Source: Escherichia coli (lineage in GTDB: Bacteria; Pseudomonadota; Gammaproteobacteria; Enterobacterales; Enterobacteriaceae). Taken from it: 64,000 bases of DNA. Positions 23,901 to 26,900 of the stretch are shown in pieces; position 1 is the first letter of the stretch; each line of letters opens with the position of its first letter. The stretch is taken from the NCBI RefSeq assembly GCF_024298765.1, contig NZ_CP101210.1, one strand, 5' to 3'. A program made the position numbers.

Positions 23901-26900
23901 AAAGGCACCGGTGCGCTATCTTCCCCTACCGCATGAAACCGGTTACTGCTGATTTGCCCCATATTGACCGTCATTTGTTTATCGCCAGCTTCAATCCGGC
24001 AAGTTTCCGCAATAATGACGCCCTGAAATTGCATATTTCCGCCGGGCAGCGTGGTATTCCATTTATTTCCGGCCAGAGCAAACATTGGCAGCAACGACGC
24101 TAACAGAAATAATCTCTTCCTTTTCATCGTTATTTTTATCGCACAAGGGTGGGCATCCCTGCCCGTAATGACGTCCCTGAACCTGGGTAGGTTATTGATA
24201 CTGAACCTTGAAGGTCGCATCCGCATTAGCAGCACCTGGGGTTGCGGCACCGGTTGCAAAATAACGCGCCTGGAACGGAATGGTGTTGGTTCCGTTATTC
24301 AGGGTTGTTTCTGAACTAAATGTCGCACCGTCCAGCGCCAGCGCAGCACCCGTTCTGTCCAGGATCTGCACACCAACGTTTGTTGCGCTACCCGCAGCTG
24401 AACTCTGCAGAGCCAGTACATCAGTATGCGTAGCATCAATTGCCGTACCTAAGAAGGCAACAGCGGCTTGTGGCAACAGTGGTATCGCAATCATTCAGCT
24501 GAATGTTAAAACCAACGGCAGAGCTGGTTGCTCCAGCCTGCTTCAGGCTAGCGGTACGAACCTGGCCCAACTGAACGGTTTGATCAACAGAGCCTGCATC
24601 AACTGCGCAAGCGGCGTTAACAACTTCCCCTTTAAAGTGAACGGTCCCACCATTTACCGTCGTAGTATCGGCCAGAGCCGCTGCGGAACTGAGGGACAGA
24701 GCCGACAGAACAACGATTGCCAGAGTTTTAATTTTCATGCTGCTTTCCTTTAAAAAAACTATTTCTAAATCGACATGGGCAGTCGTTCTGTACACTTTGT
24801 TTTGTCAACGAGTTTGACTGCCAACACTGCACAGTTTTCCCCCAAAAGATGAAACATTTGGGGCCATTTTGACTCATAGAGGAAAGCATCGCGCACAAAC
24901 TTTTTCAGTTTATTTGTTGGCTTAATATTCTATTGTTATCTTTATTTATAGATTTTTATATTGCATGAGGTGGTTTTTGGAGAGAAGAATGAGGAAGATG
25001 CGTCGAGCCACAGAAACGTTAGCTTTACATATAGCGGAGGTGATGTGAAATTAATTTGCAAGAGAAATAATTTACATATCAAACAGTTAGATGCTTTTTG
25101 TCGTTTTTTAATATTTTTATGCTTGAGAAAAAATACGTAACTTATTTATGATATGGACAGTTTTGGCCCCAATTGTCTTGTATTTATTTGTTTTTTAACT
25201 TTATTATCAATGAGTTAAATCAAATCTCTTCTCTTTTTAATTTTTCGTTTATGAGATTATTTCTTTCCCATAATCCGGCAAAACGAGCAGCATTACTGGC
25301 GGTATAACGTACAGTATGGCGAATATTTCGATGCCCGAGATAATCCTGAATTAAACGGGTATCGGCACCACGCTCCGCCAGTTCATAACCGCAAGCATGC
25401 CTTAACATATGAGGATGAGTCTGCGTTACGGTTCCAGCTTCAATACCTGCATCGCGAATAATGCGATAGGCCTGCTGGCGAGAAAGCCGACTCCCGCGGC
25501 GAGAAATAAATATAGCGTCGGTCCGGTCAGCGCCTTTCCAGTTAGCACGTTCCTGGGTCCAGCGTTCCACGGCTTCACGCTCATCAAAACGTAACGGGTG
25601 AACGGTAGAAAATCCGTTCTTCAGTCGGCGAATATTTATTCGACCTTCATTAAGGTCAAGATCCTGATAATGCAGATCAAGCAGTTCACTAATACGCATC
25701 CCATGCCGATATGCCAACAGAATAAGACAATAATCTCTGGCTCCCGTTGCCCCGTAACAAACCGCCTGCATCATGGCCTGAACTTCTTTACCGGTAAGAT
25801 AACGACGTTTACTCACAATAGTAGTACTCCTGACTGAGATATATTTGAATGAATACCTATAGGAAACCTCAATCGGTCAAAATTAGCCCAATAGATAAAA
25901 AGATAACCACACACGAAGTGATGTGGCTATCAGTCAATTACATTAAATATCATACAAAAATAAAATATCACTGATGTGACAACATCTATTTTCATTGATT
26001 TGATTCAATATAACAATAGATTGCAGAAGATTAACTTCCAGTTGCTTAAAAAATAAAGAAAAAAGTGTGGAAACAGGAGAATTTAAGTGATGTGTAAATT
26101 TATGAATGATTTTGTTTATTTATTTTGAAGAACATAAACCATTGGATTTTGTATGGGTATGGTTAACTTAATGTTTATTATGATAATTAAGAATCACACT
26201 TACAATAACATCAATTAATAAATGGTTAATAATTTTTGATATATCGTAAGAATAATGTAGTTTTTAACACCATCCCTGGTATCTCAACTATCTCTATAAA
26301 ACAGCGTGACGCTGTCGTCCTCTGGCTCTATCCCAGATGCCGTAAAAACGCCCTGCATTGCTGGCGGTATACCAGACAGTATGACGAATATTGCGATGCC
26401 CAAGATAATCCCGGATAAGTCGCGTATCTATTCCCATATTCGCCAAAGCAAAACCACACGAATGGCGTAACATGTGCGGATGAATCTCCAGTGACAACCC
26501 GGCATTACCACCAGAAGTCGAGATAATATGGTAAAACTGTTGCCGAGAAAGCGGATTCCCCTTACGTGATAAAAATACCCACTCGCTCTCAGCATGCGGA
26601 TAAGAAGTACGGATACTCAACCAGTTTTTTAAAGCCTGAACTTCTTTGTTTAATAGCGGGTGCGTTGTTGAAAAGCCTTTTTTTAATCGATGGATATATA
26701 TACACTTTGCCTTAAGATCAATATCCGAAATCCTCAATCGACAAATTTCACTCGCCCGGAAACCATGAATAAAACAAAGCAAAGTCAGACAATAATTACG
26801 TGCTGCATGAGGCCCGGTATTTGCTGCTTTAAGGAGTGATTCGATTTCACTATGGGTCAGGAAGTTCCTTTTTTTGTTATCAGCCTTATTCTTCATCGTT

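What the first reader, a model, noticed from the sequence alone, without database searches (positions are those of the whole stretch)
24858..25172. fimS switch appears captured in the phase-OFF orientation
The only good sigma70-like promoter inside the element (TTGAGA, 18-bp spacer, TATGAT at 25123-25152) lies next to the fimE-proximal inverted repeat and reads toward fimE, away from fimA. Together with the fimA frameshift this suggests the type 1 system is silent in the sequenced population.
Basis: partly seen in the sequence, partly recalled or inferred. Interest (0 to 1): 0.45.

Follow-up and report, generated by a model that had tools for sequence, protein, structure and literature searches.

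The report
Ordinary fimS switch, OFF orientation
This is the well-known invertible promoter switch of E. coli type 1 fimbriae, sitting in its OFF orientation as it does in about 94% of finished E. coli genomes, so it is real but ordinary.

Summary
Window 24858-25172 is the canonical E. coli fimS element: 9-bp inverted repeats TTGGGGCCA/TGGCCCCAA lying between fimE and fimA, both on the minus strand. The fimA promoter (TTGAGA-18-TATGAT, 25123-25152, + strand) lies beside the fimE-proximal repeat and points into fimE.

Three tests call this phase OFF:
- The published SnaBI assay run in silico gives 162+440 bp (published OFF 161+440).
- The published BstUI assay gives 540+188 bp (published OFF 539+187).
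- The element is colinear with the UTI89 reference, which a paper states is OFF, and with MG1655.

A census of complete E. coli genomes finds 4457 of 4719 (94.4%) in this orientation and 248 (5.3%) in ON. OFF is therefore the default captured state, as expected from FimE's ON-to-OFF bias. fimB, fimE and both repeats are intact. The identical fimS allele occurs in ON orientation in two other genomes, so nothing suggests a locked switch.

The fimA frameshift is also real in the sequence. It is a 2-bp deletion at 24468/24469 with a stop at codon 101, and none of 4259 genomes shares it. A sequencing error cannot be excluded.

Known biology, low interest.

The parts
24858..25172 (.). fimS invertible element (315 bp including both 9-bp repeats), in the phase-OFF orientation
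   Evidence: Searches give the sequence, the repeats and colinearity with the MG1655 and UTI89 references. The in-silico SnaBI and BstUI assays give OFF fragment sizes.
25164..25172 (.). IRL, the fimE-proximal 9-bp inverted repeat (TGGCCCCAA on +, TTGGGGCCA in the fim reading direction)
   Evidence: Identical to K-12 and UTI89.
24858..24866 (.). IRR, the fimA-proximal 9-bp inverted repeat (TTGGGGCCA on +)
25123..25152 (+). PfimA: -35 TTGAGA, 18-bp spacer, -10 TATGAT. It points toward fimE and is disconnected from fimA.
   Evidence: 10/12 match. The sequence is invariant across the window, MG1655 and UTI89. PMC2647292 places PfimA inside fimS, directed at fimA only in the ON orientation. The identity of these hexamers with the mapped promoter (Olsen & Klemm 1994) rests on my own recollection.
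25134..25139 (.). SnaBI site (TACGTA) inside the promoter spacer, the asymmetric marker used in the published orientation assay
   Evidence: a 602-bp amplicon cut into 162+440 bp, the OFF pattern.
24890..24893 (.). [quoted passage not shown]
   Evidence: a 728-bp amplicon cut into 540+188 bp, the OFF pattern.
24839..24973 (-). [quoted passage not shown] The two primer sites face each other only in this orientation.
   Evidence: Primer sequences come from PMC9993118. Positions were read off alignment A1, giving a 135-bp product. One 3' mismatch in BSFORBIO is an allele difference.
25220..25816 (-). fimE, the ON-to-OFF tyrosine recombinase, intact (198 aa)
   Evidence: 197/198 identical to K-12 FimE.
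26294..26896 (-). fimB, the bidirectional tyrosine recombinase, intact (200 aa, Q162R relative to K-12)
   Evidence: 199/200 identical to K-12 FimB.
24192..24738 (-). fimA with a 2-bp deletion at 24468/24469. FimA is native to about residue 90, then out of frame, with a stop at codon 101 of 182.
   Evidence: No complete E. coli genome shares the deletion (best identity 98.6%, that is 141/143).

Best explanation
This is the canonical E. coli type 1 fimbrial phase switch, assembled in its OFF orientation.

How the switch works. The tyrosine recombinases FimB and FimE recombine the two 9-bp inverted repeats and flip the roughly 314-bp fimS segment that carries the fimA promoter. In the orientation seen here the promoter lies next to the fimE-proximal repeat and fires into the 3' end of fimE, so the fimAICDFGH operon has no promoter. 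In this same orientation the Rho-dependent terminator inside fimS truncates and destabilises the fimE mRNA.

Why OFF is expected. FimE switches ON to OFF far more efficiently than FimB switches OFF to ON, so most cells of a normal culture are OFF and a consensus assembly records OFF.

What is shown and what is inferred. Shown here: the identity of the element, its orientation, the intact repeats and recombinase genes, and the fact that the same allele exists in both orientations in other genomes. Inferred from established knowledge: no fim transcription from this orientation, and a minority of ON cells in the sequenced culture.

Separately, fimA carries a private 2-bp deletion. If it is real, it abolishes the pilus rod whatever the switch does.
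For: - Identity and synteny: the gene order is fimB-fimE-fimS-fimA-fimI-fimC-fimD on the minus strand. A 615-bp stretch is 100% identical to many E. coli genomes annotated fimE/fimA.
- SnaBI assay: published ON 403+198 and OFF 440+161 (PMC11724981 and PMC4374849). The window gives 162+440 and its synthetic inversion gives 405+197.
- BstUI assay: published OFF 539+187 and ON 433+293 (PMC9993118). The window gives 540+188 and the inversion gives 293+435.
- Positive control: the UTI89 reference, stated to be OFF in PMC6458436, gives 161+440 and 539+188 and is colinear with the window.
- Census: 4457 of 4719 genomes are in the same orientation and 248 match the synthetic ON version.
- Invertibility of this allele: the synthetic ON version is 100% identical to strains E371 and GPEC1356.
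- Recombinases: FimB is 199/200 and FimE 197/198 identical to K-12.
- Mechanism and OFF bias: PMC9993118, PMC9096935 and PMC2647292.
Against: Nothing contradicts the OFF call. The limits are these:

- An assembly shows only the consensus orientation, so the ON fraction is unknown.
- The exact -10/-35 assignment of PfimA could not be confirmed in a paper held in the library, and rests on recollection of Olsen & Klemm 1994.
- This allele has one extra A between IRL and the adjacent internal recombinase half-site compared with K-12. The effect on switching rate was not tested, although the allele is found inverted in other genomes.
Confidence: 0.96

Rival explanations
1. The switch is locked OFF, meaning it cannot invert, as reported for EHEC O157:H7 and EPEC E2348/69, rather than simply being sampled in OFF.
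For: The orientation is OFF. Compared with K-12 there is one extra A immediately inside IRL, within the region where recombinase half-sites lie. No intact leuX tRNA, which the title of Ritter et al. 1997 (cited in PMC11316696) links to control of FimB expression, lies in the window.
Against: Both 9-bp repeats are perfect, and there is no deletion relative to K-12 or UTI89. fimB and fimE are intact. The identical allele occurs in ON orientation in two complete genomes. The leuX fragment at 37320-37343 is only the 24-nt island-boundary copy, so the intact gene is expected beyond the window.
Confidence: 0.03
2. The fimA frameshift is a sequencing or assembly error in a homopolymer run. On this reading the system is only phase-OFF and is not genetically dead.
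For: The deletion lies in a 4-base homopolymer run and is private: none of 4259 genomes shares it. A second private homopolymer deletion (A7 to A6 at 5769) frameshifts yjiK 18.7 kb away, and none of 4744 genomes shares that either. Apart from the two homopolymer deletions, the window differs from 13P477T by only 5 substitutions over 24.5 kb.
Against: Losing 2 bases from a 4-base run is not the typical one-base homopolymer undercall. ORFs across 37.4-62 kb all keep the lengths annotated in strain EC02, so the record is not riddled with frameshifts. Two IS insertions show that the strain has real private mutations.
Confidence: 0.4
3. The element is actually phase ON, with the functional fimA promoter located elsewhere in fimS and reading toward fimA.
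For: None was found. The only formal gap is that the promoter mapping was not re-read from a primary paper.
Against: Two published restriction assays and the UTI89 control all give OFF. The scan found no promoter-like site on the minus strand in 24600-25400.
Confidence: 0.01

Closest known systems
E. coli fimS type 1 fimbrial phase switch (K-12 MG1655 and UPEC UTI89 references), inverted by FimB and FimE
   Same: The 9-bp inverted repeats TTGGGGCCA are the same, as is the position between fimE and fimA. The promoter hexamers and the SnaBI and BstUI marker sites match. Mean column identity is about 98%, and the orientation is the same OFF orientation as both reference sequences.
   Different: The element is 315 bp rather than 314 bp (one extra A inside IRL), with a handful of substitutions. 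This allele is shared at 100% identity with many animal and human isolates.
Locked-OFF fimS variants (EHEC O157:H7 regulatory mutation, mentioned in PMC6458436; EPEC E2348/69, PMC9096935)
   Same: The promoter faces away from fimA.
   Different: The window shows no deletion or repeat defect, the recombinases are intact, and the allele is seen in ON orientation elsewhere. That the O157 lesion is a 16-bp deletion is from my own memory.
fim cluster pseudogenisation in Shigella and EIEC (PMC4374849)
   Same: An inactivating lesion in a fim structural gene, if the fimA deletion is real.
   Different: Here there is a single private 2-bp deletion in fimA. There are no IS insertions, nonsense mutations or deletions elsewhere in fimB-fimD. 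The record otherwise groups with ordinary E. coli such as 13P477T, at 99.97% over 24.5 kb.

Membership tests
fimS invertible promoter element (FimB/FimE switch) | Flanking 9-bp inverted repeats 5'-TTGGGGCCA | tested here: met
   24858-24866 and 25164-25172 form a perfect inverted pair and are identical to K-12 and UTI89.
fimS invertible promoter element (FimB/FimE switch) | A segment of about 314 bp located between fimE and fimA | tested here: met
   The element is 315 bp. fimE ends at 25220 and fimA starts at 24738 on the same strand.
fimS invertible promoter element (FimB/FimE switch) | Carries the fimA promoter | tested here: met
   TTGAGA-18-TATGAT lies at 25123-25152 and is invariant across MG1655, UTI89 and the window. 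PMC2647292 places PfimA inside fimS.
fimS invertible promoter element (FimB/FimE switch) | Linked, intact fimB and fimE tyrosine recombinase genes | tested here: met
   FimB is 199/200 and FimE 197/198 identical to K-12, both full length.
fimS invertible promoter element (FimB/FimE switch) | The segment actually inverts | tested here: met
   Shown indirectly. The synthetic inversion of this exact allele matches two natural genomes at 100%, and 248 genomes match the synthetic inversion over at least 80% of its length. Inversion in this particular isolate cannot be tested without reads.
Phase-OFF state of fimS | SnaBI assay pattern 440+161 (OFF) rather than 403+198 (ON) | tested here: met
   The window gives 162+440. 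The UTI89 OFF control gives 161+440.
Phase-OFF state of fimS | BstUI assay pattern 539+187 (OFF) rather than 433+293 (ON) | tested here: met
   The window gives 540+188.
Phase-OFF state of fimS | No fimA transcription and an afimbriate phenotype | not testable with these tools
   This needs RNA or agglutination data from the isolate.
Locked-OFF fimS variant | A lesion in the switch or recombinases that prevents inversion | tested here: not met
   No deletion, perfect repeats and intact fimB and fimE. The same allele is seen in ON orientation elsewhere.

The most novel reading that the evidence does not exclude
The private 2-bp fimA deletion is a real mutation. This isolate would then be a natural FimA-null strain in which the switch, both recombinases and the rest of the operon are still intact. 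That would be a very recent first step of type 1 fimbrial loss in an otherwise ordinary E. coli lineage, with the OFF state no longer under any selection.
Probability: 0.5. Interest if true: 0.12.

Novelty: already known. Interest (0 to 1): 0.05.

Why it matters
It matters little beyond correct annotation. The fim switch is one of the best-studied invertible promoters, and finding it OFF in an assembly is the normal outcome: 94% of finished E. coli genomes are OFF, including the MG1655 and UTI89 references.

The practical lesson is that switch orientation in a consensus assembly says nothing specific about a strain. Only read-level ON/OFF ratios do.

The one strain-specific item is the fimA 2-bp deletion. 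If it is confirmed, it predicts a mannose-sensitive-agglutination-negative isolate.

Tried and rejected
- I looked for an open paper giving the explicit -10/-35/+1 sequence of PfimA and found none (one search failed on syntax). Hinde et al. 2005 (PMC1317003) is not held. The hexamer assignment therefore rests on recollection plus the figure legends of PMC2647292 and PMC9096935.
- An Rfam scan of 23500-27500 at E<=0.1 found nothing.
- I considered a damaged leuX tRNA as a cause of low FimB. A 1-bp difference sits at 37326 and ARAGORN finds no tRNA. I rejected this: only the last 24 nt of leuX align, so this is the partial copy at a genomic-island boundary and not the gene.
- I wanted a base-by-base indel count for 37.4-62 kb against strain EC02, but loci L002 and L005 were never exported to the Python sandbox. 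I compared ORF lengths with the EC02 annotation instead, and they all agree.
- Motif statistics cannot establish the feature. The promoter-like count equals the shuffle expectation, and 8-9-nt inverted repeats are common locally. Homology does establish it.
- I ran no further search on the deletion-spanning pattern. The expected information was low.

Full report
**What is there.** Window 20-27 kb carries the type 1 fimbrial cluster on the minus strand:
- fimB, 26294-26896
- fimE, 25220-25816
- an intergenic stretch
- fimA, starting at 24738
- fimI, fimC and fimD

A sigma-70-like site lies at 25123-25152 on the + strand: TTGAGA, an 18-bp spacer and TATGAT, matching 10 of 12 positions. All the coordinates in the finding are correct.

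**Is it more than chance?** Not by motif alone.
- The promoter scan finds 2 sites where shuffles give 2.4 +/- 1.6.
- Several other 8-9-nt inverted repeats occur in the same 600 bp.
- A second, weaker site (9/12) sits at 24933-24962 on the same strand, so 'the only good promoter' is a slight overstatement. No promoter-like site was found on the minus strand, toward fimA.

Homology is what makes the element real.
- The 615 bp made of fimS plus 150 bp on each side are 100% identical to many E. coli chromosomes annotated fimE/fimA.
- The region aligns end to end with K-12 MG1655 and UPEC UTI89 at about 98% mean column identity. The repeats, the promoter hexamers and the SnaBI and BstUI sites are all conserved.
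- The only length difference from K-12 inside the element is one extra A immediately inside the fimE-proximal repeat, giving 315 bp instead of 314 bp.

**Orientation.** I tested this without relying on promoter reading.

1. SnaBI assay. The primers CAGTAATGCTGCTCGTTTTGCCG and CAGAGCCGACAGAACAACG give published fragments of 403+198 bp for ON and 440+161 bp for OFF (PMC11724981 and PMC4374849). In silico the window yields a 602-bp amplicon cut into 162+440 bp. Flipping the segment between the repeats yields 405+197 bp.
2. BstUI assay. Primers OL4 and OL20 give published fragments of 539+187 bp for OFF and 433+293 bp for ON (PMC9993118). The window yields 540+188 bp and the flipped version 293+435 bp.
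3. Reference in a stated orientation. PMC6458436 says that the UTI89 reference genome has fimS OFF. UTI89 gives 161+440 and 539+188 bp in the same in-silico assays, and the window is colinear with it and with MG1655.
4. Published probe. [quoted passage not shown] It measures 135 bp on alignment A1.

The element is therefore in phase OFF. PfimA lies beside the fimE-proximal repeat and reads antisense into the end of fimE.

**How unusual is that?** It is not unusual. I searched 5,426 complete E. coli genomes with the 615-bp query and with a synthetic version in which the segment is inverted. Of 4719 genomes with a match:
- 4457 (94.4%) hold the window's orientation in one colinear piece;
- 248 (5.3%) hold the inverted, ON version;
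- 14 fit neither at 80% coverage or more.

This matches the literature. [quoted passage not shown] In OFF, PfimA is disconnected from fimA, and a Rho-dependent terminator inside fimS shortens and destabilises the fimE transcript (PMC2647292).

**Captured or locked?**
- The repeats are perfect, and no deletion exists relative to K-12 or UTI89.
- FimB is 199/200 identical to K-12 (Q162R) and FimE is 197/198 identical, both full length.
- The synthetic ON version of this exact allele is 100% identical to two natural genomes, E371 and GPEC1356, so this allele does invert in nature.

I put a locked switch at about 3%. The assembly shows only the majority state, and a minority of ON cells in the sequenced culture is the expectation.

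**The fimA frameshift.**
- Strain 13P477T is 99.97% identical over 24.5 kb. Against it, fimA lacks 2 bases of a 4-base run (TTTT to TT on the + strand at 24468/24469).
- FimA is native to about residue 90 and stops at codon 101 of 182.
- None of 4259 genomes with this fimA segment shares the deletion. The best identity is 98.6%, that is 141/143.
- A second private homopolymer deletion (A7 to A6 at 5769) truncates yjiK, and none of 4744 genomes has it.

Two private frameshifting homopolymer deletions among very few differences look somewhat like sequencing error. Against that, a 2-base loss from a 4-base run is not the usual error type, and ORFs across 37.4-62 kb keep the lengths annotated in strain EC02. 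I leave this at roughly even odds. If the deletion is real, the strain cannot build the pilus rod whatever the switch does. If it is not, the system is simply phase-OFF.

**Comparison with what is known, and verdict.** Every defining feature of the FimB/FimE-fimS switch that could be tested is met, and so are both published criteria for the OFF state. The closest relatives are the K-12 and UTI89 switches themselves.

The element does not fit the locked-OFF EHEC/EPEC situation. It only loosely resembles Shigella-type fim decay (PMC4374849), because everything except the 2-bp fimA lesion is intact.

It is already known, and I score its interest at about 0.05.

Noticed in passing
window 29251-30307 (target duplication GGTACAAGC at 29242-29250 and 30308-30316): A 1057-bp insertion sequence is absent from strain 13P477T and interrupts nanM. 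It has terminal inverted repeats GGCTTTGTTGAATAAATC and a 9-bp target duplication, and encodes an IS5-family transposase (ORF 29307-30275, minus strand). It is IS903-like in size and ends. The IS903 attribution is from memory.
   Followed up: partly
window 5769 (yjiK, ORF 5018-5821): A private 1-bp deletion in an A7 run (A7 to A6) truncates yjiK relative to 13P477T. None of 4744 complete E. coli genomes shares it. Together with the fimA deletion this may point to homopolymer sequencing errors in the record.
   Followed up: partly
window 37320-37343 and onward to 64000: Only the last 24 nt of tRNA-Leu(CAA) leuX are present, with a 1-bp difference from the gene in 13P477T, and no tRNA is detected anywhere in the window. 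Homology to 13P477T stops here and a genomic island follows. The island carries cbtA/cbeA-type toxin-antitoxin, antirestriction and DUF genes, the position equivalent to the EAST1 astA gene annotated in strain EC02, and a second chaperone-usher fimbrial operon at about 55.7-62 kb.
   Followed up: partly
window 54052-55260 (minus strand): An ORF encoding a 402-aa IS4-family transposase. The query part not covered by strain EC02 is probably here, so this may be another strain-specific IS insertion inside the island. Its boundaries were not determined.
   Followed up: no
window 25163 (the A run just inside the fimE-proximal repeat): This fimS allele has one extra A compared with K-12 and UTI89 (TTGGGGCCAAAAC versus TTGGGGCCAAAC), giving a 315-bp element. 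The base lies where an internal recombinase half-site is expected. The allele is common (many 100% matches) and is found in both orientations.
   Followed up: partly
window 26411-26413 (fimB codon 162): FimB carries Q162R relative to K-12. According to PMC4374849 this is the codon that is a nonsense mutation in the four S. flexneri strains examined there. Here it is a conservative missense change, also present in 13P477T, whose fimB DNA is identical.
   Followed up: no
E. coli complete-genome collection: A census by-product: 94.4% of finished E. coli assemblies carry fimS OFF, 5.3% carry it ON, and 14 genomes fit neither orientation at 80% coverage or more. Those 14 may hold insertions or deletions in the switch.
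   Followed up: no
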